Source of the DNA: Escherichia phage ECML-4
Sequence record: JX128257
Length of the DNA stretch: 64,000 nucleotides
Direction: 5' to 3' (one strand)
The notes beneath the pieces were generated by a model. That model was not told where the DNA came from. It made no database searches and saw only the letters and a list, made by a program, of their open reading frames with translations. Of this stretch, positions 3,522 through 57,881 are shown piece after piece. The position numbers were made by a program, and so were the translations under genes. The number at the start of each line of letters is the position of its first letter. The first letter of the stretch is position 1.

Positions 3522-4075
3522 TTGGTCAGCTCCTGTTCCAGCTGATTAACAAAGGAAGAAACATAATCTGGATCGAGCACTTGGATGTTACGTTTGGCTT
3601 CGTTTTTGTTTATTGCATCATCGTGATATGTAATGCCAGTCAGTCCGTAATTCGCGATGATTGTCGCGTCGTCCATAGCGCCAAGGCCATATGCCAAACG
3701 GATAGCGCGGGGATCTGTTTCATTCCCAAATTCGTCAACGTAGTATTTTACGTCCCACATCCCATCGAGACCATAACGAGCAGTTAGCTCTTCAATGATT
3801 CTGCGTTCTGGTTTTGGCCAGTCTTCTGTGATATCCATGATACCATTGATAAGACATGGTATCCAGAACAACTCGAAGGAACCATAGACCCGTTCCGCAA
3901 AAGACCTTGGGGTTTCCCCATCGAAAACAGTATAAGGCAGGAGAAGCCCTTCTATGTCCCGAATTTTCTTAACAACCATAACCCGTCGTGTCAAGTTTTG
4001 CAACAGGACTTGGTCATTTTCTTTGACACCAATTAGTTGATGCCATACGAGTGGAAATTTCTCAAAATATTTCAT
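3518..4075 (-). CDS. hypothetical protein (virion morphogenesis cluster)
   Basis: 185 aa ORF in structural operon; no recognisable motif. Confidence 0.4.
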   Translation of the reverse strand: MKYFEKFPLVWHQLIGVKENDQVLLQNLTRRVMVVKKIRDIEGLLLPYTVFDGETPRSFAERVYGSFELFWIPCLINGIMDITEDWPKPERRIIEELTARYGLDGMWDVKYYVDEFGNETDPRAIRLAYGLGAMDDATIIANYGLTGITYHDDAINKNEAKRNIQVLDPDYVSSFVNQLEQELTK

Positions 4076-4087
4076 GGCATCTTCCCC

Positions 4088-5056
4088 TTAGAAGCTGTCG
4101 CCTTCGGTATCAAAGCGGCCTTTGTGCAACGGTTCCAGTTCAATAAATGTCATGTCAATCTGGGTTGACACGATGCTATCATCTTTGTGGACAGCATATG
4201 AAGAATCCGGCGTCTCGTTGACAAACATGTTTGACAAAACACAAGTCGATATTCGATGTAACCATTTATTGCGTTCCCCCTGCACCATGAACGTGATGTC
4301 AAATGTGGAAGGGTGTAGGTAGAATGCACTGGAATTCTTGTTGTATTTGTATTCAGGGTACATATGCATCTTGAACAGACGAATGATCTCCCTCACCATT
4401 TTCGCCTCTTTTTGAGATCGAGGGGTGAATTTAAAGGTGAATGGAATTTCGCGGTTGCGCACCCCTTGGAATATCATTTCTACATATGGGTTTGTCATTG
4501 TGCCCGTGAACAACTCTAATGTATCGTGAGCATTAATTGTTGGTAAGAACGGAATTGCTTCCGAAGCAGATTGAATCGCCTTTGTGGCAGCAAATCGCCC
4601 CATTTCTTTTCCCACGTTTAATGCATCGCCAAGTTTGAATTGGCTCATATCTTGGGCAGCGCGGGATAAGAATTGGGCACCCATACCAGCTAATCCTAAC
4701 TCAGAGCCGTTCCAACCAACGCCATAGTTGGTTGTAATAGATTCAGGCATGCATAACACTATGGACTCGTTAGAGCGGACATGACGCGCCCAAGCATATT
4801 TGCTGATAGAACCTGATTTAGAACCATAAACCACAGGAGTTTTTCCCAGTGGGTTTTGGATAGGGTTCTCAACGGTTTGAGTCGTTGTGTCGCCGTATGA
4901 CGATCCTGATATGCGGTTAATATTGAATAAAACATAATGACCGAGGGTTTTACCCCCCGTTATATCCAACGGATAGACCAATTGCTTCTGAGACTTGGCC
5001 AAGCCTTTTGTGTTCAGAACTTTGATCTTATCGATGGTCGACTTGAAATTCGCCAT
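4088..5056 (-). CDS. hypothetical virion/baseplate-associated protein
   Basis: 322 aa ORF, first gene of the minus-strand structural operon. Confidence 0.4.
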   Translation of the reverse strand: MANFKSTIDKIKVLNTKGLAKSQKQLVYPLDITGGKTLGHYVLFNINRISGSSYGDTTTQTVENPIQNPLGKTPVVYGSKSGSISKYAWARHVRSNESIVLCMPESITTNYGVGWNGSELGLAGMGAQFLSRAAQDMSQFKLGDALNVGKEMGRFAATKAIQSASEAIPFLPTINAHDTLELFTGTMTNPYVEMIFQGVRNREIPFTFKFTPRSQKEAKMVREIIRLFKMHMYPEYKYNKNSSAFYLHPSTFDITFMVQGERNKWLHRISTCVLSNMFVNETPDSSYAVHKDDSIVSTQIDMTFIELEPLHKGRFDTEGDSF

Positions 5057-5108
5057 GGTCTGAAGCCCTTAATTAGAATAGAGTAATGACACTATTTAGG
5101 ACTAGAAT

Positions 5109-8887: not shown

Positions 8888-9229
8888 TTATGGCCTCCTC
8901 ATCCATTCTAATATTGGGATGCCTACAAACCCTTTATGCCAGCGGTGGGGTTTATGGCCTCTGTTGTGATCCAACAAACAAGTATCTGGAGGAACACTGA
9001 AATGGATACCATCGATATCGTAATAATTCCCGTCGATAAGAGTATACACATGCCCTTCAATCTGGCTGTAATGAATCTCCGCTTGCGGATAAACGTGTTT
9101 GAGAACCAGGGCGACTTGATAGCACTTCCCGTTCTTTCCCACATACTCAACATCCACCTGTTGTGGGAAAATGTCCTTGATCAGATTTATCAATATGGTG
9201 ATATCATTCACTACAACAGATGGTTTCAT
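8888..9229 (-). CDS. hypothetical protein
   Basis: 113 aa ORF, His-rich C-terminus. Confidence 0.35.
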   Translation of the reverse strand: MKPSVVVNDITILINLIKDIFPQQVDVEYVGKNGKCYQVALVLKHVYPQAEIHYSQIEGHVYTLIDGNYYDIDGIHFSVPPDTCLLDHNRGHKPHRWHKGFVGIPILEWMRRP

Positions 9230-9242
9230 CTTCTCATCTCAC

Positions 9243-9905
9243 CTATGATAACTCATAGCGATGGCGGGTACATGCAGGGCAATTACAGTCTTTTCTCAAA
9301 ATTGGCATTTCACACCACGTCATCAAACCATGTATTGGAGACATATGATGATAAAACCATGATTTTTTGAGACTAATCAAAGGATATAAAATTTCAATTG
9401 GCCTTTCCCCGTCTCTTGTCATCATATTGTATCCTTCGATGACCTTATTGAAAGCTGGGATCCAGTGGATCGCGTCGTCCCCGTTGACATATGCCAATAT
9501 GTATGTGGGAGGCAAACTCCGGCCTTTAAATTGTGTGTTTAATAACCATATCGGGGCTTGTGCTAAACACGCACGAAACCCGCCGTCCGGCACGTGAATG
9601 CTACTAATCGGTTCTTGGTGATGAGTCCAACGATGCATAAGAAGCGGAGCATTCTTGTTGATCCAATTATAAATTTTATTTCGCGCCCAATTCTCACGTT
9701 TGGATTTGAAATTATTATTTTCAAGATGGCAATACACAGTATGAACCGAATAACCTTTCGATAATAACCAAACCAACATGTATGTGCTATCCACGCCGCC
9801 TGACCAAAACAATGTCACTTCTTGATTATTTTCCGGCAAAGGTGCATCCCCTTGAAGGACACGGTACACAAATTCACAATCAGATACAGAGACAGCGATT
9901 TCCAT
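9243..9905 (-). CDS. PP-loop ATP pyrophosphatase, QueC-like
   Basis: SGGVDST PP-loop; C-terminal C-x8-C-x-C-x2-C cluster resembling the QueC zinc site; 220 aa. Confidence 0.5.
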   Translation of the reverse strand: MEIAVSVSDCEFVYRVLQGDAPLPENNQEVTLFWSGGVDSTYMLVWLLSKGYSVHTVYCHLENNNFKSKRENWARNKIYNWINKNAPLLMHRWTHHQEPISSIHVPDGGFRACLAQAPIWLLNTQFKGRSLPPTYILAYVNGDDAIHWIPAFNKVIEGYNMMTRDGERPIEILYPLISLKKSWFYHHMSPIHGLMTWCEMPILRKDCNCPACTRHRYELS

Positions 9906-38209: not shown

Positions 38210-38767
38210 ATGGCAATCGAAATTATCGCTCAATCAAAATCAGGCAAGACTGTAATGTACGGCACTGAAGAAGGCCGCTGTATCATCAACTACGGCACTA
38301 TCACTGGCGAGTCTCCAGAGAAAGGTGGTCGCTATCTGGTTGAGTACGGTTCACGCCTGCTAATGGTAAGCAAAGTCGATGGTCGTGAAATCATGATTCC
38401 TCGTAAAGAATACTTTGACTCACGCTCTGCCGCGATGACTTTCTTCCTCTTCCAGAAACGCCACGAACTCTTCGTTGAAGCGAAAGACGCAGGTCTGGAC
38501 GACGCGACGGCTGAGCTGATTGCCGAAGGTAAAATGACTCTCGAAGCTGCTCTCGGAGACATGGATTGCGAAGCCGAAGCACATTATATTGAATATTCCG
38601 CATATCAGAACGAATGTGAAGATGATCCGGAAGACGACGGATTCGACCCTGACCTCCACGGCGGCGAAGACGATAACACCCCTTCCTTAGAAGTTCTGAT
38701 GGCTGGCGGCCAGGCCGCTTGGGAATGGCAGAACGAGAAGAACGCCTGGCTGGATTCCCGTATCTAA
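38210..38767 (+). CDS. hypothetical protein with acidic C-terminus
   Basis: start at ATG 38210 preceded by AAGGAAATACATC; C-terminal ECEDDPEDDGFDPDLHGGEDD. Confidence 0.45.
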   Translation: MAIEIIAQSKSGKTVMYGTEEGRCIINYGTITGESPEKGGRYLVEYGSRLLMVSKVDGREIMIPRKEYFDSRSAAMTFFLFQKRHELFVEAKDAGLDDATAELIAEGKMTLEAALGDMDCEAEAHYIEYSAYQNECEDDPEDDGFDPDLHGGEDDNTPSLEVLMAGGQAAWEWQNEKNAWLDSRI

Positions 38768-38968: not shown

Positions 38969-39510
38969 GCACCCCAAAAACTCCTGTCCGTATCGCTGTT
39001 GAGCCTCTGCTGGTTGATGCTGAGAATGCTGCTGAGCAGTACGCGAACAAAGTCATCAAGAACATAATGGACGATCTGGCCTCCAACGACTGGGACGTCG
39101 AGAAGTGCGCTCCGTGGCCGTCTTCGGTTGGCGTCAAGTTTGGTGATCCAGATTACCAACGAATGAAATCAAAACACGCACTCTACCGTTCTTTGACCCA
39201 GGCAGTGAATCCTTCTTACACACCTGGGAAGCCGGATATTGTCAAAGCTGATCCTGAGCGCCATGCTCTGTTTGTCAAGGAAGCACGTCGAAACGCCGCG
39301 ATGCAGTATGAGTCTTTCATTTGTAAACTGGAAAACAAAATTGGTGGTCACAGCGCGGCTGTACTGAATGGTTCCCATGTATGGGGTTATTCAATCCTGA
39401 CCGTGACTACACCAGAGGGGATCGAGCGCTGGAAGACTCAGACGATTATCAATGTGTCCAAGCTGGGCAAACTCTTTAACCAATATCCAACGAGGAAGGT
39501 GAAGGAGTAA
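38965..39510 (+). CDS. hypothetical protein
   Basis: start at ATG 38965 with the same AGGACTATATCATGA context; ATGA overlap with upstream stop. Confidence 0.45.
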   Translation: MSTPKTPVRIAVEPLLVDAENAAEQYANKVIKNIMDDLASNDWDVEKCAPWPSSVGVKFGDPDYQRMKSKHALYRSLTQAVNPSYTPGKPDIVKADPERHALFVKEARRNAAMQYESFICKLENKIGGHSAAVLNGSHVWGYSILTVTTPEGIERWKTQTIINVSKLGKLFNQYPTRKVKE

Positions 39511-39521
39511 AATTAGAACAA

Positions 39522-39544
39522 CAAAGGGGCTTAATGCCCCTTTG
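39522..39544. terminator. bidirectional terminator between convergent genes
   Basis: CAAAGGGG-CTTAATG-CCCCTTTG hairpin with T-rich flanks on both strands. Confidence 0.5.
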
Positions 39545-39545
39545 T

Positions 39546-40004
39546 TTATTTCCCATCCCAAAAGTCGTCTTCATCGTCTACTTCATCAAACGCAGAATCC
39601 AATTCTGCGTCAGAGTACTCTGGTAGACGACCATTCTGTTTCAGATATTCAATTTCGTCATCTTCCAATTGAAGATCCGTTGCTATAAACAGCGCTCCGG
39701 TCTCTTCATCATGTTCAATGCTATAAGACGTATATTCAGAACCCTGAACTGTAATGATGATAGATGTTGGATCTTCTGGATCCACGTGAGCTTCAAACGG
39801 GATACCGTCAATTGGGGCGTCTTCTAAGAATGTTGCAAGGGCTACGGCAGCGCGGACAACATCCGTACCCTGTACCGATGCATAAATTTCTTCTGCGCCC
39901 GTTTCCCCGCGCTCAAAGAATTCAATCGTAGTTCCGTCTTGAACCCCAGTCCAGATAGGCATATCTGCTGGTGTATCGGCTTCAAATAATTTTGAAATTG
40001 GCAT
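39546..40004 (-). CDS. highly acidic protein
   Basis: 152 aa, very Asp/Glu-rich with few Lys/Arg. Confidence 0.45.
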   Translation of the reverse strand: MPISKLFEADTPADMPIWTGVQDGTTIEFFERGETGAEEIYASVQGTDVVRAAVALATFLEDAPIDGIPFEAHVDPEDPTSIIITVQGSEYTSYSIEHDEETGALFIATDLQLEDDEIEYLKQNGRLPEYSDAELDSAFDEVDDEDDFWDGK

Positions 40005-40039
40005 GTTCGTTTCCTCTATGGATAAACCTTATGGGATAT

Positions 40040-40489
40040 TTAGGCTTCTCTCTTCGCCAGCCCTGGTTTGAATACCACCATTTCTTCTACGTTATTGGCA
40101 CTCATAGAGGCTATGGAATCGAATCCTTTATTGATAAGTTCCTTCACATTATCGTGAATCTTACCAGGTTCTATCCCCAACTCACGCATTTTGTTTTCCC
40201 AAACAGAAACGTTATTAGAATCTATTACCAGAGTCTTCTTGGCCTTAACACGAAATGCCATGACAACAGGTTCACCAGATTGACGATAGCGAACGGCGTT
40301 TTCCGCGTAGATCTGCGCTTTTTCTGGATCCCCTGTCAGGTAAAATCCAGCACCCATCGTACCAGAGTCAGTCTGGCCAAATTTTTCAAAATCAAAGACG
40401 TCGAATTCAACATTCGACCCATGATATAAAACAATATCCGTAAAATCGGGCAATGTTGATTCACGATAGAATTCTAGGAAGGTTTTCAT
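40040..40489 (-). CDS. ADP-ribosyltransferase-fold protein (PARP-like H-Y-E class candidate)
   Basis: LYHGSN (H-G-S), GAGFYLTGD (G-x-G-x-Y-F/L), IYAEN, later NNVEEMVVF resembling the PARP catalytic-Glu strand; 149 aa. Confidence 0.4.
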   Translation of the reverse strand: MKTFLEFYRESTLPDFTDIVLYHGSNVEFDVFDFEKFGQTDSGTMGAGFYLTGDPEKAQIYAENAVRYRQSGEPVVMAFRVKAKKTLVIDSNNVSVWENKMRELGIEPGKIHDNVKELINKGFDSIASMSANNVEEMVVFKPGLAKREA

Positions 40490-40528
40490 GGATACCCCAC
40501 ACTTGCTGTATGGGGTATTTAGGAGGGA

Positions 40529-41722
40529 TCAATCAGGGGTAAACTCGTTCACAGGAACTTGTTCCGGCATAGACAATTCGGGGCATGCTGCCTTCATTGG
40601 CTCAATATACGGCTTGCTACCAACAATCCAGAACAGAGCGTTTTCGTTGAGCAGTTCTGGCTTATGCTGTTGGATCCAGGTCATGACCTTGCCTTCATAG
40701 CGAGGATGCAGCTCAATATCACCCCACTGATAATCCATCAGGTCATTATAGCGAACCCAATTCGTTGTATGCAAATCCCAATGGTGTACTGCAAAGCGTG
40801 GGAGCGTTATCTCCGGCTCTCCCTTCTCGCGGATACCCATCAGGAGGCCAGCCAGCGAAACGCTCTTAGAGGCATGCTGAAGATCCTTCTTACCATACAC
40901 ATAATCTGGGTTGTCGTGATAGCAACGAGTGAAATCCGTTATGTGCGGAAGATTAGCTTGTTTTCCAATAATACGCAAACGGCTTTCAATAAAGTCCAGA
41001 CGGTTGGGACCAATCCCGATCAGATATACATTTTTCAGATTTGGTTTCGGGTGCATTGCCAGCCCTGTCAAAATGCTGGTACAAGAATTACATGAACCAG
41101 CAGGAATGATCAGATCTGTGATATGGTCCGGAATGTTAGCAACCTGCTCGCCGCCCAGCATATGAAATCCTGCAATCCTCTCCGGAGAATGCAACGTATG
41201 ATCCAGAGTGATCCCATACTCTAGATAATATGCTTTTGGATTCTGCTGCTCAATCAATTTCTTGCAGCGCGGCTGGATAGTGCTGTTGTAACCCGAACCG
41301 ACAAAGTTGAATTCGCTGCCGAACCAGGCGCTCATCTTCACCATGTCATGGTTCATACACGTGGTGGGTTTGGTAGCGCCCAGGACTGTAGTTGTCTTGC
41401 CGCCGAAATGCCGTGAGACTGCCGTCGCCATAGGGGACTGCGGACTACCAACGACTGTACCATGGATAAGGTCTGGGGAGCCTCCGGCCTTTAAATGCTC
41501 AACCATCAGCCAGATGGCCTGACGAAGTTTACTGCCGTTGATGCCCTGCTTGCCATCTGTATAGTTGGACAGCGGCGCGAAGTAATCTTCACGCTTGAAC
41601 CAGACCTGTTGATTGGTTTCAGGGTTGGCAACGAGTTCACACGGGGTGTGCTTGTAGAGGTAGTCTTCCCAGTGGACCAGGTTGCGGTCGAGGGAAAGTG
41701 TATCGAAGATGGACTTGTTCAT
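40529..41722 (-). CDS. PLP-dependent enzyme, fold type II (ACC-deaminase/D-cysteine-desulfhydrase-like)
   Basis: GINGSKLRQAIWL resembles the G-N-K-x-R-K-L PLP-lysine motif; Gly-rich loop VGSGYNST; 397 aa. Confidence 0.5.
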   Translation of the reverse strand: MNKSIFDTLSLDRNLVHWEDYLYKHTPCELVANPETNQQVWFKREDYFAPLSNYTDGKQGINGSKLRQAIWLMVEHLKAGGSPDLIHGTVVGSPQSPMATAVSRHFGGKTTTVLGATKPTTCMNHDMVKMSAWFGSEFNFVGSGYNSTIQPRCKKLIEQQNPKAYYLEYGITLDHTLHSPERIAGFHMLGGEQVANIPDHITDLIIPAGSCNSCTSILTGLAMHPKPNLKNVYLIGIGPNRLDFIESRLRIIGKQANLPHITDFTRCYHDNPDYVYGKKDLQHASKSVSLAGLLMGIREKGEPEITLPRFAVHHWDLHTTNWVRYNDLMDYQWGDIELHPRYEGKVMTWIQQHKPELLNENALFWIVGSKPYIEPMKAACPELSMPEQVPVNEFTPD

Positions 41723-41791: not shown

Positions 41792-42475
41792 TTACTTGGT
41801 CAGAAAATCCATCAGGCGGCGGAAAAACGATTTGCGTGAGTCACTCACCTTCGGAGGATACTGAAGGATGGGTGGAAGTTCAGGATCCACACCAACAGGC
41901 GCTCCCTGATCGTTCAGAACACGACTGGCTGGTGGAGTCGGTGGAGTCGGCTTCAAAGATTTGATCGCCTGATTCAGATCGGAATTGTCCACAACACTCG
42001 CTTCTTCAGCCACAGAAACACACGGCTTGATTAAAACAGATTTCTTGGACTGCTCATACTGATGAGCGATATCTAGATATTTCTTGCGCTCAGCGTAGAA
42101 ATCTACGTTCTTAACTTTACGGCGGCGAGCAGTAGAACTCTCTTCACCATAAAAGTCATATCCATTTTTGAACATCCAATTCACTGCTTGCTCAAATGAA
42201 TTGAATACCATATACAGGCCGCGCCGCCCGTTGACCATATCGTCTTCGCTGGAATAACCGATGAACACCGCTTGGCCTTTCTTGTTCAGATCAAATGGGG
42301 TGCAGACGCCCGTATCATCTAGGGAACGCGGTGCTAGGTGCCCGTCTCTGTAAATGTAAGCCGGATACAAGAACTCATTCAGAGTGCGCTTGTTGCCTTT
42401 ATATGTGTACAGACGAGCAAATGGAGGCAGATCACAAACAACATCATTGTAATCCCAAATTGTTACATTGCGCAT
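41792..42475 (-). CDS. hypothetical protein
   Basis: 227 aa ORF; Pro-rich C-terminal segment. Confidence 0.4.
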   Translation of the reverse strand: MRNVTIWDYNDVVCDLPPFARLYTYKGNKRTLNEFLYPAYIYRDGHLAPRSLDDTGVCTPFDLNKKGQAVFIGYSSEDDMVNGRRGLYMVFNSFEQAVNWMFKNGYDFYGEESSTARRRKVKNVDFYAERKKYLDIAHQYEQSKKSVLIKPCVSVAEEASVVDNSDLNQAIKSLKPTPPTPPASRVLNDQGAPVGVDPELPPILQYPPKVSDSRKSFFRRLMDFLTK

Positions 42476-42546: not shown

Positions 42547-43065
42547 TCAAATACTGGTCATATAGAGTGGGACAACCTGCTCGGCAATCAACACGACCTC
42601 AGTAATAGTGAAGTCACCGCCATAAGAGTACAGTTTGATTTGCGCCCCGTTTGTCGCCAGATTCCCATCCTTGTCAACACTGAAGAACGTAATGAAAGAC
42701 AGGGTGTCCGGCGGCGGTACGCTAGCATCACGACTTCTTGATAACTGGTTCCCAAGAGAGCCAACAAAGTCAACAATCATGGTTCTGTTTGAAGTGGATC
42801 CAGACCATGAACCGACGATATTGACCTTCACCGGAAGAATAGAATCATAAGGAAACGCGTGAAATTTGTGATCTGATAATTTAAAGAACGGAGCCAAACC
42901 AGTAGGAGAAGAAGGGTTCGGAGTCTTCCCATCCAACACAGTTAACAAATCTATTCCAGTTGCCCCAGAAGTTAGAAGTTGTGACAAACCGGAAAATCTG
43001 ACTTCTGTTTTGATGCGATGGGTCTGAAGCATATTCCCCAAATAGGGAGATATCAAAATGGCCAT
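42547..43065 (-). CDS. hypothetical protein
   Basis: 172 aa ORF. Confidence 0.4.
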   Translation of the reverse strand: MAILISPYLGNMLQTHRIKTEVRFSGLSQLLTSGATGIDLLTVLDGKTPNPSSPTGLAPFFKLSDHKFHAFPYDSILPVKVNIVGSWSGSTSNRTMIVDFVGSLGNQLSRSRDASVPPPDTLSFITFFSVDKDGNLATNGAQIKLYSYGGDFTITEVVLIAEQVVPLYMTSI

Positions 43066-44469: not shown

Positions 44470-44670
44470 TTATCCGTGCTTGTTTGCTTCAATTGCCCTT
44501 AATTGAGCATCAGCGTCAGCTTTGGTGTCATGTGTCCCAAGAACCTTCGTCTTGGTGTGGTCAAGGACAACCCACTTGTCGCCTCGCTTTTCAACAAACT
44601 CAACAATCTCTTTGTTGTCGGTAGCGAGGCCATCCCACTCAGCAAGAAACTCACCGAACGTTTTCATCAT
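44470..44670 (-). CDS. small hypothetical protein embedded in tRNA cluster (66 aa)
   Basis: track ORF begins with TTG; more likely start is the ATG-ATG pair at 44670 preceded by GGTGAG. Confidence 0.35.
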   Translation of the reverse strand: MMKTFGEFLAEWDGLATDNKEIVEFVEKRGDKWVVLDHTKTKVLGTHDTKADADAQLRAIEANKHG

Positions 44671-44787
44671 ACTCACCAATTGTTTATTGAACAACTGGTT
44701 TATTTAGGTGCTCCCGAGGCGGTATTTTAATCCCGCGATCCCATCTCGCCTGCCGTAGACCAGAGCATGCTGACAGTCCAACATATT

Positions 44788-52124: not shown

Positions 52125-55100
52125 ATGGCCAACAAACCAACACAGCCTCTTTTCCCTTTGGGTTTAGAAACTTCGGAGTCTTCGAACATAAAAGGCTTCA
52201 ACAACTCCGGCACCATAGAGCATTCCCCTGGTGCAATATTGACGTTCCCTGAAGATACTGATGTTGCGGGTCTCCCATCTTCTGTGCGTTACAATCCTGA
52301 TAGTGATGAATTCGAAGGTTATTACGAAAATGGCGGGTGGTTGTCTTTGGGCGGCGGTGGAATACGCTGGGAAACGCTCCCATACGCTCCCTCCAGCAAT
52401 CTGTTAGAAGGGCGCGGCTATCTCATTAATAACTCCACTGGGACTTCTACGGTGGTTCTTCCTTCCCCTACGCGCGTTGGTGACTCGGTTACAATTTGTG
52501 ATGCCTATGGTAAATTCGCGACGTATCCATTGACCGTATCTCCAGCGGGAAATAACCTGTACGGCTCCACCGAAGATATGACGATATCCACCGATAACGT
52601 GTCGGCGACTTTCACTTGGTCTGGTGCTGAGCAGGGTTGGGTTGTTACATCTGGTGTTGGCCTCGGTCAAGGTCGTGTGTACAGTCGAGAGATTTTCACT
52701 CAAATTTTAGCATCTGATACAAATGAAGTGACTCTCAACATCCCTCCGACAATTGTGGACGTGTACACTGATGGGAAACGCCTTACAGAATCCAAATATT
52801 CTTTAAATGGAAACGTAATCACTTTCGACCCTTCTTTACCTGCTGGCACTGAATTGCAGGTAATAGAATATACTCCGATTCAGTTAGGTACTGGCGGCGG
52901 GGGTTCGGGCGCTTCTGCAATCACCTGGATTTACAATGGCGGATCCGCTATCGGCGGCGAAACCGAAATAACGCTAGACATCGTTGTAGATGATGTTCCG
53001 GCTATTGATATAAACGGGTCTCGTCAGTACAAAAATCTTGGATTCACGTTCGACCCATTGACGAGTAAAATCACTCTGACGCAAGAACTGGAACCAGAAG
53101 ATGAAGTTGTTGTGGTTATAAATGGGACACCAAACATCTATAACCAGATCGATCGTTCTTTACAGGAAGTTGCTCGCGCCTACAATTTTACAAATGCTCA
53201 AGTTATTTTGAGCAACGATTATACTTCTGTGCTGGATAATAAAGTCGTTATTTATGATACGACATCCCAACGTTCTTGGGGGATTCCATCTGGAATTCCA
53301 GCAGGTTCTACAGTGGTTTCCGTCAATGGGGATCAACTGAAATACAAAAATGGATCAACTGAAACCACTGTTACATTGGTGAGCGTACCAGGTAGTGCAG
53401 AGAAGTTGAAGAACGATCTGGCGTCGAACTCTGGCGCGGGTATGTTGAAAACTTCTAGAGGTGATACCGTAGAAGAAGAATTGACTTTTATTAATCAGAA
53501 TATGGTCGTTCAAATTTCAGATTTCGCGAGCCTTAGAACTTTAGTGCCAGCCACAGCGGGCATCCGAGTCAAATTGAAAGGTTATTATTCTGGTTCTGAA
53601 ATTGGTGGCGGAGAATTCATTTCCGTCGCTGGTGATGCTGTTGATGATGCTGGGATGATTGCTCGAGTGTCAAGCAGCTTCTATTGGAAGAGAATTATCG
53701 ACAAACATATTACTCCTGGTATGTATGGCATCAAAGGGAATCTTCCAGAAGATCCGGCAGTGAAACTGAACGCTATGTTTGCGGCTGCGGCTGCGGCTAA
53801 CGCTTATGTCTTACTGAACGATGTCGATACTCTGGTCTGTAAAAGCCCTGTCGTGATCCCAGCACATTCATTAGTGTACGGCAACAAGCGGACCATATTG
53901 AAACGTGATGCATCGTTGTCATATGCTAATGATTTCTTGACAATTATGAATGATTCATATGTCAAGGGGATCTATGTTGATGGTAGCCGTTTAGATTCTC
54001 AGACTCCGCTAGAAGCAGTTTTGGTGCGCATCGCTGGGAATGTGACTATCCATAAGAGCGAGATCCGAAACAATGCTGGCTATGGCGTTGTTGGTAACGC
54101 AGTCCCTGGCATTCGTATCACCAAGAACATTTTTTCCAACTTCGCCAAAGGTTGTGTGGCTATGTTTGGTGACGGAACGGCGACGAGTGATGATCTGCAA
54201 ATTAATGATAACAGATTCTTTAACCTGGGCGCGGGAACCATTTATGTTGGCGGTTACTCAAACTTCCTTGTCGACAAAAACGTCGGAAGAGGCACTTACG
54301 TGGGTTCTCCAGGAAACCGTCTGTATGTTGTGACCAATACCAACGGGACTATCACCCAAAGCGCTGGGCCAGATTTTGGGGCGCTGAAAACGGGTATGTT
54401 CTTTGTATTGCCTGGTGGTTCTGAACATATGATAACGGCAGTCAACAGCCTTACAAGTGTGACAGTAACCCCAGCACCTCCGTCGAATGCAACGGTTCGT
54501 GCAATTGCTGGGACAGGGGATCTTCTGGGCATCCAATCATGCTCCTACGGCACCATCAGCCGTAACAACCTGACCGATTGTGTGACTTACGGAACTGGTG
54601 GAGGCACGATGGAGGGGAGCACTCTGGGGTGCAATTATGTCACATGGGAAGACAACTTCATCCGCAACACAGGTAAGAACGGAATCAACGTCGGGCAATC
54701 AGGCGCTGGGGTCGCCACGTGTTCAATCCTGAGGAACACTCTGATACAGGTTGGTAACGGCGGTCAGGGTGTTGGCCCAGCGTATCTTCTGCCTTGGTTC
54801 GATACGGTAGGTATTGCTCTGTATCAGGGAAACCCAGGTTATATGGCGAATATGGACGTCAGTGATAACAACGTCTCTACATGGTCTGGCGATCTGAATG
54901 ACGGCGCTGCTTGGTTTGGTATGAGCGGTTGTACGGAAGCCACTGTGACTTGTACAGGCAACAAATCTTCTGGTTATTCCGACGGCTATGTTCGTGGAGA
55001 TATATTAGAAGTCACGTTGACAGGTTATGGTACAGGGGCGGCTGCGACTTCATTCGTTAGTGATGGTGAGTCTATACAGATAACTGTTCAAACAGGTACT

Positions 55101-55298
55101 TCACCAACAGCTTCTCCTTATTTTTCAGTGCGGAAGGCGATCCGCACCCGCCATCAACCGATGATAACGGCGCAGATCGTCACCACAACTGGGAACATGT
55201 CTCATTGTTGGGGTATGCAATCTAGTACAGCAGGAAATTGGATGGTGGGTCAGAATACAACTCCTTCAGGGGTCACGACGTATTACGCAAAAGGGTAA
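52125..55298 (+). CDS. tailspike protein (1057 aa) with beta-helix region
   Basis: internal module IDRSLQEVARAYNFTNAQVILS...VVIYDTTSQRSWGIP homologous to the other three tailspikes; C-terminal Gly/Asn/Thr-rich repeats typical of right-handed beta-helix. Confidence 0.75.
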   Translation: MANKPTQPLFPLGLETSESSNIKGFNNSGTIEHSPGAILTFPEDTDVAGLPSSVRYNPDSDEFEGYYENGGWLSLGGGGIRWETLPYAPSSNLLEGRGYLINNSTGTSTVVLPSPTRVGDSVTICDAYGKFATYPLTVSPAGNNLYGSTEDMTISTDNVSATFTWSGAEQGWVVTSGVGLGQGRVYSREIFTQILASDTNEVTLNIPPTIVDVYTDGKRLTESKYSLNGNVITFDPSLPAGTELQVIEYTPIQLGTGGGGSGASAITWIYNGGSAIGGETEITLDIVVDDVPAIDINGSRQYKNLGFTFDPLTSKITLTQELEPEDEVVVVINGTPNIYNQIDRSLQEVARAYNFTNAQVILSNDYTSVLDNKVVIYDTTSQRSWGIPSGIPAGSTVVSVNGDQLKYKNGSTETTVTLVSVPGSAEKLKNDLASNSGAGMLKTSRGDTVEEELTFINQNMVVQISDFASLRTLVPATAGIRVKLKGYYSGSEIGGGEFISVAGDAVDDAGMIARVSSSFYWKRIIDKHITPGMYGIKGNLPEDPAVKLNAMFAAAAAANAYVLLNDVDTLVCKSPVVIPAHSLVYGNKRTILKRDASLSYANDFLTIMNDSYVKGIYVDGSRLDSQTPLEAVLVRIAGNVTIHKSEIRNNAGYGVVGNAVPGIRITKNIFSNFAKGCVAMFGDGTATSDDLQINDNRFFNLGAGTIYVGGYSNFLVDKNVGRGTYVGSPGNRLYVVTNTNGTITQSAGPDFGALKTGMFFVLPGGSEHMITAVNSLTSVTVTPAPPSNATVRAIAGTGDLLGIQSCSYGTISRNNLTDCVTYGTGGGTMEGSTLGCNYVTWEDNFIRNTGKNGINVGQSGAGVATCSILRNTLIQVGNGGQGVGPAYLLPWFDTVGIALYQGNPGYMANMDVSDNNVSTWSGDLNDGAAWFGMSGCTEATVTCTGNKSSGYSDGYVRGDILEVTLTGYGTGAAATSFVSDGESIQITVQTGTSPTASPYFSVRKAIRTRHQPMITAQIVTTTGNMSHCWGMQSSTAGNWMVGQNTTPSGVTTYYAKG

Positions 55299-55310
55299 TA
55301 TTGAATGCCT

Positions 55311-55345
55311 AAATACCCCATATTGGTCATCCTTTATGGGGTATT
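55311..55345 (+). promoter_or_regulatory. conserved ATACCCC/GGGGTAT hairpin upstream of a tailspike start codon
   Basis: AATACCCCATA pairs with TATGGGGTATT, ending 4 nt before ATG 55349; near-identical copy at 57847-57881. Confidence 0.5.
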
Positions 55346-57296: not shown

Positions 57297-57846
57297 AGAA
57301 GTTGTTGATGGTAATCGGCGATGATTGCTCATTTTGTTTTGGGTAATTCTTCGATCTTCAGTCGTTAAACGCCATCATTGCTGCTTCCCATCCCAGCGCC
57401 ACACACACACACACTATGCATCCGGCATTTAAAGATGCGGAAAGGTAATCAATCTGGCCTTCCTCCCAATCGCTAATTGTGTGGTCTTTCCTCTTGCTTC
57501 TGGTGTTTCTTTGTCCGGCGCTGGGAATTATATGGTAATTTCGGGAAACACGTTGATGGCTAATAACCCATCTGCGCCTGAAAATATAACTTTGTATCAG
57601 GTCACAGGTGCGCAGAGTTGGGTGGCCCATTATGAAACTATCAGATGTGTTCGAAATGATTTCAAATCTGCGCTGTTGGCGATTAATGCAACAGGGACAG
57701 CACAATCTGGTTTGAGTACTACCAATAAATTCTGGTTCGGGGATAACGCGACGATCAATACCACGGTTGTTTGTACTTATCCTGCTGGCAACAAAGCCAA
57801 CACCGATATCACTCAGACAGTTTCAGTTTAAATTGAATTGAGCCTA

Positions 57847-57881
57847 AATACCCCATATTGGCAAATCCTTTATGGGGTATT
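57847..57881 (+). promoter_or_regulatory. conserved ATACCCC/GGGGTAT hairpin upstream of a tailspike start codon
   Basis: AATACCCCATA ... TATGGGGTATT, about 35/40 identical to the 55311 copy; track ORF starts at an ATG inside the 3' arm. Confidence 0.5.

What the first reader, a model, noticed from the sequence alone, without database searches (positions are those of the whole stretch)
39546..40004. Highly acidic 152-aa protein next to the ART-fold gene
Extreme Asp/Glu content with few basic residues is typical of DNA-mimic or anti-restriction proteins (Ocr/ArdA-like in charge distribution), and it sits directly upstream of the ART-fold gene. No homology is claimed.
Basis: inference. Interest (0 to 1): 0.45.

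Follow-up and report, generated by a model that had tools for sequence, protein, structure and literature searches.

The report
Acidic virion protein of Vi01-like phages
The very acidic 152-residue gene is real and is a conserved particle-associated protein of Vi01-like (Ackermannviridae) phages, already catalogued as an "unknown structural protein"; it is probably carried inside the phage head, and nothing tested here shows it to be an Ocr/ArdA-type DNA mimic.

Summary
Positions 39546-40004 (minus strand) encode a 152-aa protein with 40 Asp/Glu, 6 Lys/Arg and pI 4.05, the most acidic of 72 putative genes in the window.

The window is a Kuttervirus (Vi01-like Salmonella phage). The protein belongs to phrog_3852, a family confined to Ackermannviridae. 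Its orthologues (LIMEstone1 ORF174, Sajous1 gp115, ViI Vi01_184) were detected by mass spectrometry in purified virions.

The gene has its own copy of the family's CTAAATAcCcc motif. That motif is annotated as a late promoter in LIMEstone1 and also precedes the tailspike genes.

The model shows a folded beta/alpha core (residues 17-125) and a disordered acidic tail ending in an invariant DD(F/L)W. It has no significant structural or sequence relative, and no match to Ocr or ArdA.

The invariant N-terminus, M..SKLFE|A, copies the N-terminus of the phage's own T4-like scaffold protein (..NLFE|G) and fits the (L/I)xE cut motif of T4-type prohead proteases. The neighbouring ART gene starts with a near copy of the T4 internal-protein capsid-targeting sequence.

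Best reading (inferred): a late, capsid-targeted internal head protein, possibly ejected with the DNA. A DNA-mimic or anti-restriction role is neither supported nor excluded. The ART is not an obligate partner, because distant relatives keep the acidic gene without it.

The parts
39546..40004 (-). CDS of the acidic protein (152 aa plus stop). It is the orthologue of ViI Vi01_184, LIMEstone1 ORF174 and Sajous1 gp115, and a member of phrog_3852.
39981..40004 (-). Codons 1-8, MPISKLFE. This is a conserved N-terminal peptide (S4, L6, F7, E8 invariant) followed by a variable linker. I propose it is a capsid-targeting/propeptide segment with an LxE| prohead-protease site. It resembles the scaffold N-terminus MKPELQNLFE|G and T4 Alt ITELFDEDT.
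   Evidence: the cleavage itself is inferred, not shown
39630..39956 (-). Residues 17-125: predicted folded core with the order beta-beta-beta-alpha-beta-beta-beta-beta-alpha. 10-residue pLDDT block means over residues 11-130 are 72-94.
39549..39614 (-). Residues 131-152: disordered acidic C-terminal tail (pLDDT < 50).
39558..39575 (-). Residues 144-149, DEDDFW. The motif [DE]DD[FL]W is kept in every homologue and is followed by 0-11 further residues. In the Sajous1 genome it occurs only in this protein.
40011..40017 (-). Ribosome-binding site AGAGGAA; the GAGG lies 8-11 nt upstream of the ATG.
   Evidence: read directly from the sequence
40030..40044 (-). CCTAAATATCCCATA, the gene's own copy of the Ackermannviridae CTAAATAcCcc regulatory motif. 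It starts 40 nt before the ATG and overlaps the ART stop codon. The same spot is annotated as a putative late promoter in LIMEstone1.
39520..39546 (.). G+C-rich hairpin (11 pairs) with T-runs on both strands. It acts as a bidirectional terminator between the acidic gene and the convergent gene that ends at 39510.
40040..40489 (-). Neighbouring gene (context): ART-PolyVal/DUF3990 protein. Its N-terminus MKTFLEFYRE|S closely resembles the T4 IPII/IPIII capsid-targeting sequence. It is also virion-associated and has its own CCTAAATACCCCATA motif at 40509-40523.

Best explanation
This is a late-expressed, particle-associated protein that is conserved throughout the Ackermannviridae.

The most likely mechanism has three steps.
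1. The protein is made late, from its own CTAAATA-type promoter.
2. It is recruited into the T4-like prohead core by its conserved N-terminal peptide (M..SKLFE), which imitates the N-terminus of the phage's scaffold protein. The gp21-like prohead protease then trims it after Glu8.
3. The mature, roughly 144-residue protein (net charge about -33) stays inside the head with the aminated (5-NeOmdU) DNA. Like T4 internal proteins and Alt, it is probably ejected into the next host together with the neighbouring CTS-bearing ADP-ribosyltransferase.

Once in the cell, its conserved carboxylate surface and the DD(F/L)W tail would bind a basic partner, most plausibly a DNA-binding one.

Status of each step.
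- Shown: the gene and its conservation; virion association of the orthologues (published proteomics); the promoter motif; the fold prediction.
- Inferred: location in the head, N-terminal cleavage, ejection, and any decoy activity.
For: **Virion association**
- LIMEstone1 ORF174 is annotated 'confirmed structural protein'.
- Sajous1 gp115 gave 31 spectra from CsCl-purified virions, similar to the neck protein (33) and above the baseplate tail tube protein (24).
- The LIMEstone1 paper states that all 12 of its unknown structural proteins have structural counterparts in ViI. Vi01_184 is annotated 'phage associated protein'.

**Late expression**
- All 6 CCTAAATA sites in the window lie 29-44 nt upstream of an ATG in the correct orientation. 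They precede this gene, the ART, two tailspike genes, a 322-aa ORF (its position corresponds to the Sajous1 baseplate tail tube cap gene gp56, by my coordinate mapping) and a 65-aa ORF.
- The 15-mer has 4 exact matches against 0.29 expected.
- The same motif is described as a unique regulatory motif of EspM4VN and is annotated as a putative late promoter before ORF173 and ORF174.

**Targeting peptide**
- S4, L6, F7 and E8 are invariant in 28 sequences and kept in relatives of 41-44% identity, while residues 9-17 vary.
- In the whole Sajous1 genome, only the scaffold protein gp156 (MKPELQNLFE|G) and this protein have an ..LFE N-terminus at an annotated start.
- T4 shows the same relationship: gp22 MLKEQLIAE|A against IPII/IPIII MKTYQEFIAE|A.
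- T4 Alt ITELFDEDT resembles ISKLFEADT.
- Kuttervirus has gp21-like protease (36% identity, E = 1e-20), gp22-like and gp23-like genes.
- The T4 literature says 10-residue N-terminal CTS peptides ending in Glu target diverse proteins into the core and are then removed.
- The N-terminus is disordered in the model.

**Neighbour**
- The ART has a near-T4 CTS and is also a virion protein.
Against: - No experiment localises the protein to the head rather than the tail, or shows its N-terminal processing. The stored part of the Sajous1 peptide table does not include this protein.
- Mass-spectrometric presence is not proof of packaging. In the same data set RegB-like gp211 also has 31 spectra, and LIMEstone1 identified ORF174 from a single peptide.
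- The N-terminal motif is short. By rough estimate, 'LFE' within the first 10 residues is expected about 0.4 times per genome.
- The motif is not the MKT(F/Y)xEFxxE type seen in the ART.
- The gene sits in a cluster with the tail needle knob gene, which would equally suit a tail location.
- A net charge of about -33 (the mature form) next to packed DNA is electrostatically awkward.
- T4 internal proteins are patchy and fast-evolving. This gene is present in essentially every Ackermannviridae genome (276 records), which suits a core structural or assembly role better than an arms-race effector.
Confidence: 0.45

Rival explanations
1. It is an assembly component of the prohead core and not an effector. 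It would be an acidic counterpart of T4 gp67 and the acidic internal peptides. It would pair with the extremely basic Kuttervirus 'prohead core protein' or with the scaffold during head assembly, and be partly retained in the mature head.
For: - Presence across the whole family and conserved synteny.
- Intermediate conservation: 73% identity to PP35, against 85% for the polymerase and 63% for the ART.
- T4 gp67 is an 80-aa core protein with 35 D/E, an internal KLFAE|A site and a poly-acidic tail.
- The Kuttervirus head module has only one small core gene, and its product is very basic (34 K/R in 105 aa). No acidic gp67-like gene sits there.
- The N-terminus resembles that of the scaffold.
Against: - No sequence similarity to gp67, gp68, gp22 or Inh.
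- The gene lies about 40 kb from the head module.
- It has a folded globular domain, unlike gp67.
- Nothing shows an assembly phenotype.
Confidence: 0.2
2. It is an external or tail-associated virion component, such as a decoration, neck, baseplate or needle-associated protein. Its negative surface would serve particle stability or host-surface interactions.
For: - Virion proteomics.
- It shares the CTAAATA motif with tailspike genes.
- It lies three genes downstream of the Sf6-type tail needle knob gene.
- Conserved in all family members.
Against: - The conserved N-terminal peptide, separated from the domain by a variable linker and matching the scaffold/protease motif, has no obvious role in an external protein.
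- No fold similarity to known decoration, neck or baseplate proteins.
Confidence: 0.15
3. It is an Ocr/ArdA/Arn-like DNA mimic that blocks host restriction or nucleoid proteins. This is the first reader's idea, in the version compatible with the data: a mimic pre-packaged and injected with the DNA, as T4 IPI* is against GmrSD.
For: - Net charge of -34, with acidic positions conserved by position.
- A folded domain and not a random acidic coil.
- Virion association would deliver it before any phage gene is expressed.
- Precedent: T4 internal proteins are described as a diverse set of packaged anti-restriction proteins.
- Lee et al. note that GmrSD-like enzymes may target hypermodified thymidines.
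Against: - No homology or fold match to any known mimic.
- Late expression rather than early.
- Universal conservation is untypical for anti-restriction genes.
- The DNA is already hypermodified.
- No binding partner is known.
Confidence: 0.12
4. It is a chaperone, adaptor or inhibitor dedicated to the neighbouring ADP-ribosyltransferase, analogous to the small acidic class I chaperones of type III secretion effectors.
For: - Adjacent genes, each with the same promoter motif, and both products found in virions.
- Size, acidity and the beta-beta-beta-alpha-beta-beta-beta-beta-alpha order are similar.
Against: - phiEa2809 and Kevin keep the acidic protein but have no ART in the locus.
- The structural scores are below significance.
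- T3SS chaperones are not themselves exported, whereas this protein is in the particle.
Confidence: 0.07

Closest known systems
Orthologues already in the literature: LIMEstone1 ORF174 ('unknown structural protein'), ViI Vi01_184 ('phage associated protein'), Sajous1 gp115 ('putative structural protein')
   Same: Same gene: 73-97% identity, same length, same position after the PLP and ART genes, same terminator and promoter motif.
   Different: Nothing of substance differs. The function has never been assigned. The window's phage is closest to vB_Hercules_SET (99.5% identity over the 3.7-kb locus).
T4 internal head proteins IPI*/IPII/IPIII and Alt (capsid-targeting-sequence cargo)
   Same: - Small proteins of unrelated folds, found in virions, in a phage with a T4-like gp20-gp21-gp22-gp23 head module.
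- A short conserved N-terminal peptide ending in Glu that resembles the scaffold N-terminus.
- A neighbouring packaged ADP-ribosyltransferase, as Alt is in T4.
   Different: - T4 IPII and IPIII are basic and patchily distributed. This protein is extremely acidic and present across the whole family.
- Its N-terminal peptide (..SKLFE) is not the MKTYQEFIAE type.
- Head location, cleavage and ejection are untested.
T4 gp67 and the acidic internal peptides of the T4 head
   Same: Strongly acidic polypeptide associated with a T4-type head. Both have a KLF(A)E| site and a poly-acidic C-terminal stretch.
   Different: No sequence similarity. It is twice as long, has a folded alpha/beta domain, and is encoded far from the head gene cluster.
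DNA-mimic anti-restriction proteins Ocr (T7 gp0.3), ArdA and T4 Arn
   Same: Comparable size and extreme negative charge (the properties of Ocr and ArdA are from my own knowledge).
   Different: - No sequence or fold relationship.
- Those proteins are expressed immediately after DNA entry and are not virion components. This one is late and particle-associated.
Class I type III secretion chaperones (ExsC, ShcA, STM2138)
   Same: About 130-150 aa, acidic, with a similar order of secondary-structure elements. They are the only recurrent theme among the weak fold hits.

Membership tests
phrog_3852 / Ackermannviridae 'unknown structural protein' family | Full-length sequence match to the family profile | tested here: met
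   E = 2.5e-88 over residues 1-152 of 152. 27 close homologues were found. An exhaustive profile search found only 7 representatives at the 50% clustering level among 1.84 billion proteins.
phrog_3852 / Ackermannviridae 'unknown structural protein' family | Conserved genomic position: last gene of the leftward cluster next to the PLP decarboxylase, convergent with the genes beside the DNA polymerase | tested here: met
   Same arrangement in Guerrero, Vi01, Sajous1, PP35/LIMEstone1, phiEa2809 and Kevin.
Ocr (T7 gp0.3) DNA mimics | Sequence membership (Pfam Ocr model) | tested here: not met
   No Pfam family at E <= 0.1. No PDB sequence relative.
Ocr (T7 gp0.3) DNA mimics | All-helical fold that mimics bent B-form DNA | tested here: not met
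Ocr (T7 gp0.3) DNA mimics | Immediate-early expression on DNA entry | tested here: not met
   The gene has a late-type CTAAATA motif and its product is in virions. This rests on inference from the motif and from published proteomics.
Ocr (T7 gp0.3) DNA mimics | Carboxylates arranged with the spacing of DNA phosphates; binds type I restriction-modification enzymes | not testable with these tools
A binding assay would be needed.
ArdA anti-restriction proteins | Sequence membership (Pfam ArdA model) and the three-domain ArdA fold | tested here: not met
   No Pfam or NCBIfam hit. No ArdA structure among the fold hits.
T4-type capsid-targeted internal head proteins (functional class) | Present in purified virions | tested here: met
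   Published proteomics of orthologues: LIMEstone1 ORF174 and Sajous1 gp115, with the ViI counterpart stated in the LIMEstone1 paper. Caveat: some non-structural proteins were also detected in those data sets.
T4-type capsid-targeted internal head proteins (functional class) | Short N-terminal targeting peptide ending in Glu, removed by the prohead protease | tested here: inconclusive
   The invariant ..S.LFE| followed by a variable linker fits (L/I)xE| and the scaffold N-terminus. It differs from the MKTYQEFIAE type, and cleavage has not been observed.
T4-type capsid-targeted internal head proteins (functional class) | Phage has a T4-like scaffolding core and a gp21-type protease | tested here: met
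   Guerrero prohead protease is 36% identical to T4 gp21 (E = 1e-20), with gp22-like and gp23-like genes. These genes lie outside this window.
T4-type capsid-targeted internal head proteins (functional class) | Located inside the head and ejected into the host with the DNA | not testable with these tools
   Requires head/tail fractionation, osmotic shock or injection assays.
Class I type III secretion chaperone fold | Significant structural superposition on a chaperone of known structure | tested here: inconclusive
SSB-type acidic C-terminal tip (…DDDIPF-COOH) | Acidic run ending in an aromatic residue that carries the free C-terminal carboxylate | tested here: not met
   DD(F/L)W is invariant but is followed by 0 to 11 further residues, depending on the phage.

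The most novel reading that the evidence does not exclude
The protein is the first example of a pre-packaged DNA-mimic decoy. It would be a conserved, extremely acidic internal head protein that all Ackermannviridae inject together with their aminated DNA and a capsid-targeted ADP-ribosyltransferase. Its role would be to neutralise a DNA-binding host defence or nucleoid protein before any phage gene is expressed. Its N-terminal ..SKLFE tag would define a second, scaffold-mimicking capsid-targeting signal alongside the T4-type MKT(F/Y)xEFxxE signal.
Probability: 0.12. Interest if true: 0.7.

Novelty: new member of a known kind. Interest (0 to 1): 0.35.

Why it matters
Ackermannviridae are among the phages most often isolated for biocontrol and therapy of Salmonella, E. 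coli O157, Klebsiella and Dickeya. Half of their genes, including about a dozen particle proteins, still have no function.

Showing that this abundant acidic protein and the adjacent ART enter the head through N-terminal tags would matter in three ways.
- It would define the ejected-protein repertoire of the family. Kutter et al. believed these phages lack an Alt-like enzyme.
- It would give a handle for packaging foreign cargo in these phages, as the CTS does in T4.
- It would point to what these phages must neutralise on arrival.

If the protein turns out to be only a core or assembly component, the result is ordinary.

Tried and rejected
- **Family libraries:** Pfam, NCBIfam and PHROGs gave only the unnamed phrog_3852.
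- **Homology searches:** the word-indexed search and the exhaustive profile search found no relatives outside Ackermannviridae.
- **Solved structures by sequence:** the PDB profile search gave nothing (best E = 0.04, to an unrelated AliC).
- **T4 head proteins:** a profile comparison with gp67, gp68, gp21, gp22, Inh, Hoc, IPII, IPIII and Alt gave no similarity.
- **Sajous1 peptide table:** I looked for the mature N-terminus there, but the stored file is truncated and lacks this protein.
- **Other papers:** the tailocin paper has no proteomics. The AG3, phiD3 and EspM4VN text read here does not mention the orthologue; AG3 analysed only six gel bands, and the phiD3 and EspM4VN protein lists are in figures that are not held.
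- **rIIA 'MTDKLFE':** this looked like a third LFE N-terminus, but it is internal to the annotated rIIA gene, so I rejected it.
- **Phage SSB tail mimicry:** rejected, because the SSB ends in ..DEFEQFLKQD.
- **Role in 5-NeOmdU synthesis:** set aside, because hypermodification is reconstituted without this protein.

Full report
**What the window is**

A 3.7-kb stretch around the finding is 99.5% identical to Salmonella phage vB_Hercules_SET. It is 97-98% identical to Vi01, Maynard, Marshall and many other Kuttervirus genomes (Ackermannviridae).

**The observation**

An ORF at 39546..40004 on the minus strand encodes 152 residues. An AGAGGAA ribosome-binding site precedes the ATG, and a G+C-rich bidirectional terminator hairpin follows the stop codon.

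The protein has 40 Asp/Glu and 6 Lys/Arg, a net charge of -34 and pI 4.05. It is the most acidic of 72 putative genes in the window, almost twice as acidic per residue as the next one (z = -4.3).

It is clearly a gene.
- It matches phrog_3852 (function unknown) end to end (E = 2.5e-88).
- It occurs in 276 phage records, all or nearly all Ackermannviridae.
- Its family alignment has 81-82% mean column identity.

The family is narrow. A word-indexed search of 5.8 billion proteins found 27 close homologues. An exhaustive profile search of 1.84 billion cluster representatives found only 7.

The acidity is under selection. Relatives of only 41-44% identity (phiEa2809, Kevin, three metagenomic proteins) still have 36-43 acidic and 2-6 basic residues. 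Of the 40 acidic positions, 19 are kept as D/E in at least 90% of a diverse set.

**Context**

On the minus strand the gene order is as follows.
- A 77-aa ORF, preceded by a terminator and a TAATAAATA element.
- An Sf6-type tail needle knob gene (42547-43065).
- A gene with a weak NDUS4-like Pfam hit (41792-42475).
- A PLP enzyme (40529-41722).
- An ART-PolyVal/DUF3990 protein (40040-40489).
- The acidic gene.

The PLP enzyme is the orthologue of ViI gp226 (YP_004327553 = Vi01_182). That enzyme was shown experimentally to decarboxylate O-serinyl-thymidine in DNA to give the hypermodified base 5-NeOmdU (PMC8989533).

The hypermodification pathway was reconstituted without the acidic protein. 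The adjacency therefore does not make it a pathway member.

The order PLP - ART - acidic is the same in Limestonevirus (PP35, LIMEstone1). In the distant genera represented by phiEa2809 and Kevin the order is PLP - NDUS4-like - acidic, with no ART. The ART is therefore not an obligate partner.

**It is a known particle-associated protein**

The LIMEstone1 record annotates the ART and the acidic protein as ORF173 and ORF174, each an 'unknown structural protein; confirmed structural protein'. This matches the 17.33-kDa and 16.62-kDa entries of the published virion proteome, each identified from one peptide (PMC3296691).

That paper also states that all 12 unknown LIMEstone1 structural proteins have structural counterparts in ViI. 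The Vi01 record accordingly calls Vi01_183 and Vi01_184 'phage associated protein'. Kutter et al. confirm that Pickard et al. found 41 particle-associated ViI proteins, including 18 uncharacterised ORFs.

In CsCl-purified Sajous1 virions, gp115 (this protein) gave 31 spectra and gp116 (the ART) gave 10 (PMC10892097). With only six tryptic sites and about three peptides of usable size, 31 spectra suggests a fairly abundant component.

There is a caveat. The same table lists 31 spectra for a RegB-like nuclease, so detection alone does not prove specific packaging.

**Late promoter motif**

The sequence CCTAAATATCCCATA starts 40 nt before the ATG. An almost identical 15-mer precedes the ART gene and two tailspike genes. 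That makes 4 exact matches against 0.29 expected at two mismatches or fewer.

All six CCTAAATA octamers in the 64-kb window lie 29-44 nt upstream of an ATG in the right orientation. A seventh site, ACTAAATACCCC, precedes the 1057-aa ORF at 52125-55298, which lies directly upstream of the tailspike genes.

The motif is the 'CTAAATAcCcc' regulatory element reported for EspM4VN (PMC7283392). LIMEstone1 annotates the same positions as putative late promoters. Its similarity to the T4 late -10 element TATAAATA rests on the T4 consensus quoted. Late expression agrees with a virion protein and disagrees with an Ocr/ArdA-like immediate-early role.

**Structure**

An AlphaFold2 model built from 27 homologues has mean pLDDT 75 and pTM 0.71.
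- Residues 1-6 are disordered.
- Residues 17-125 form a core with the order beta-beta-beta-alpha-beta-beta-beta-beta-alpha; the 10-residue pLDDT block means for residues 11-130 range from 72 to 94.
- Residues 131-152 form a disordered tail.

The protein is therefore not simply an acidic coil. No significant structural neighbour was found.
- BFVD returns only an orthologue.
- Foldseek against the PDB has nothing below E = 0.28.

The only recurring theme is class I type III secretion chaperones: ExsC as the top Foldseek hit, ShcA in both searches, and STM2138. All are below significance. Ocr, ArdA and Arn do not appear. Sequence searches of Pfam, NCBIfam and the PDB are negative.

**The N-terminus**

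In the family alignment M1, S4, L6, F7 and E8 are invariant. Residues 9-17 are variable, and the folded domain starts at W18. This is the pattern of a signal peptide joined to a domain by a linker.

LFE|A fits the (L/I)xE| motif of T4-type prohead proteases. The review read says only that T4 gp21 cuts after a glutamyl residue in a short sequence motif; the (L/I)xE form is my own recollection.

Kuttervirus has the T4 head module of portal, core protein, gp21-like protease (36% identity to T4 gp21, E = 1e-20), gp22-like scaffold and gp23-like capsid protein. Its scaffold begins MKPELQNLFE|G.

In the complete Sajous1 genome, the scaffold and this protein are the only annotated proteins with an ..LFE N-terminus. 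A third apparent case, rIIA, is an internal Met.

T4 shows the same logic. The scaffold gp22 starts MLKEQLIAE|A, and the internal proteins IPII and IPIII start MKTYQEFIAE|A. This decapeptide is the capsid-targeting sequence that carries even foreign proteins into the prohead core and is then cut off. T4 Alt starts MELITELFDEDT, to be compared with MPISKLFEADT here.

The neighbouring ART starts MKTFLEFYRE|S (MKTFLQYLQE|S in PP35). This is a near copy of the T4 sequence at the positions reported to matter (4, 7, 8 and 10). It is the only such N-terminus in the Sajous1 genome.

Together with the proteomics, this makes capsid targeting the most economical explanation for both proteins. For the acidic protein the motif is short and of a different type, so I rate this step at about one in two.

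**What it might do**

Nothing tested here identifies a target.

The DD(F/L)W motif at the end of the acidic tail is invariant. In the Sajous1 genome it is found only in this protein. It is followed by a variable number of residues, so it is not an SSB-type C-terminal tip.

Universal presence and moderate conservation argue for a core role. Identity to PP35 is 73%, against 93% for the PLP enzyme, 85% for the polymerase, 63% for the ART and 44% for the NDUS4-like protein. Two candidates for such a role are an acidic counterpart of T4 gp67, or a partner of the very basic Kuttervirus core protein. No homology to T4 head proteins exists.

An injected acidic decoy against a DNA-binding host protein remains possible. 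It would parallel T4 IPI* against GmrSD. The only evidence for it is charge plus delivery.

A dedicated ART chaperone is unlikely, because relatives lack the ART.

**Verdict**

The gene is a known but functionally unassigned particle protein of Ackermannviridae. Membership of the Ocr and ArdA families is rejected, and function by analogy cannot be decided.

The useful new points are these.
- The gene has its own late promoter motif.
- It has a scaffold-like N-terminal peptide.
- The adjacent ART has a T4-type capsid-targeting sequence.
- The ART is not a conserved partner of the acidic gene.

Interest is moderate to low unless the packaged-decoy reading is confirmed.

Noticed in passing
window 40040-40489 (-): The ART-PolyVal/DUF3990 protein begins MKTFLEFYRE|S, a near copy of the T4 IPII/IPIII capsid-targeting sequence MKTYQEFIAE|A. 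Its orthologues are virion proteins (LIMEstone1 ORF173; Sajous1 gp116, 10 spectra). It looks like an Alt-type packaged ADP-ribosyltransferase, although Kutter et al. 2011 state that ViI-like phages have no Alt or ModA homologue. Candidate H-Y-E residues (YHGS, GFYLT, a late Glu) are conserved between this window and PP35.
   Followed up: partly
window 5093-5100(-), 40030-40044(-), 40509-40523(-), 44701-44708(-), 52081(+), 55308-55322(+), 57843-57857(+): The CCTAAATA(Y)CCCATA motif always lies 29-44 nt upstream of an ATG. It corresponds to the 'CTAAATAcCcc' element of EspM4VN and to the putative late promoters annotated in LIMEstone1. Before the tailspike genes it forms the 5' arm of a hairpin (AATACCCCATA...TATGGGGTATT) whose 3' arm abuts the start codon, which suggests coupled transcriptional and translational control.
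   Followed up: partly
window 44470-44667 (-): A 65-aa ORF in the tRNA region begins MKTFGEFLAE, again like the T4 capsid-targeting sequence, and has its own CCTAAATA motif. Homologues occur in Ackermannviridae and in T4-like Straboviridae (KP27, phiR1-RT, Vibrio and Aeromonas phages). My N-terminal motif scan of ORFs of at least 40 aa found no such ORF in Sajous1.
   Followed up: partly
window 40529-41722 (-): The PLP-dependent O-serinyl-thymidine decarboxylase (orthologue of ViI gp226) lacks a 27-residue insert that follows Met-Asn in ViI and Guerrero. Its first ~20 residues match the Limestonevirus (PP35) version, so the 5' end is a small mosaic.
   Followed up: yes
locus L002 (Vi01 NC_015296) 3747-4202; protein P0003: The Vi01 reference copy of the acidic protein carries a compensated frameshift over residues 41-62 (MHRYRARMCPRCR...). 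All other orthologues lack it, so it is probably a sequencing error in the type genome.
   Followed up: no
window 41792-42475 (-): A 227-aa protein has a weak NDUS4 (complex I subunit) Pfam hit (E = 3e-4, below the cut-off). It stays next to the PLP decarboxylase and the acidic gene even in phiEa2809 and Kevin. It evolves fast (44% identity to PP35) and its function is unknown.
   Followed up: no
locus L008 (Guerrero) 9003-9320: The Kuttervirus 'prohead core protein' is only 105 aa with 34 Lys/Arg. It begins MMEITE|I, like T4 Alt MELITE|L. It could be a basic counterpart of the acidic protein inside the head.
   Followed up: no
window 38210-38767 (+): This ORF, on the opposite strand two genes beyond the shared terminator, is the second most acidic protein of the window (39 D/E in 185 aa). 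It has a C-terminal ...ECEDDPEDDGFDPDLHGGEDD stretch and belongs to phrog_4823 (function unknown).
   Followed up: no
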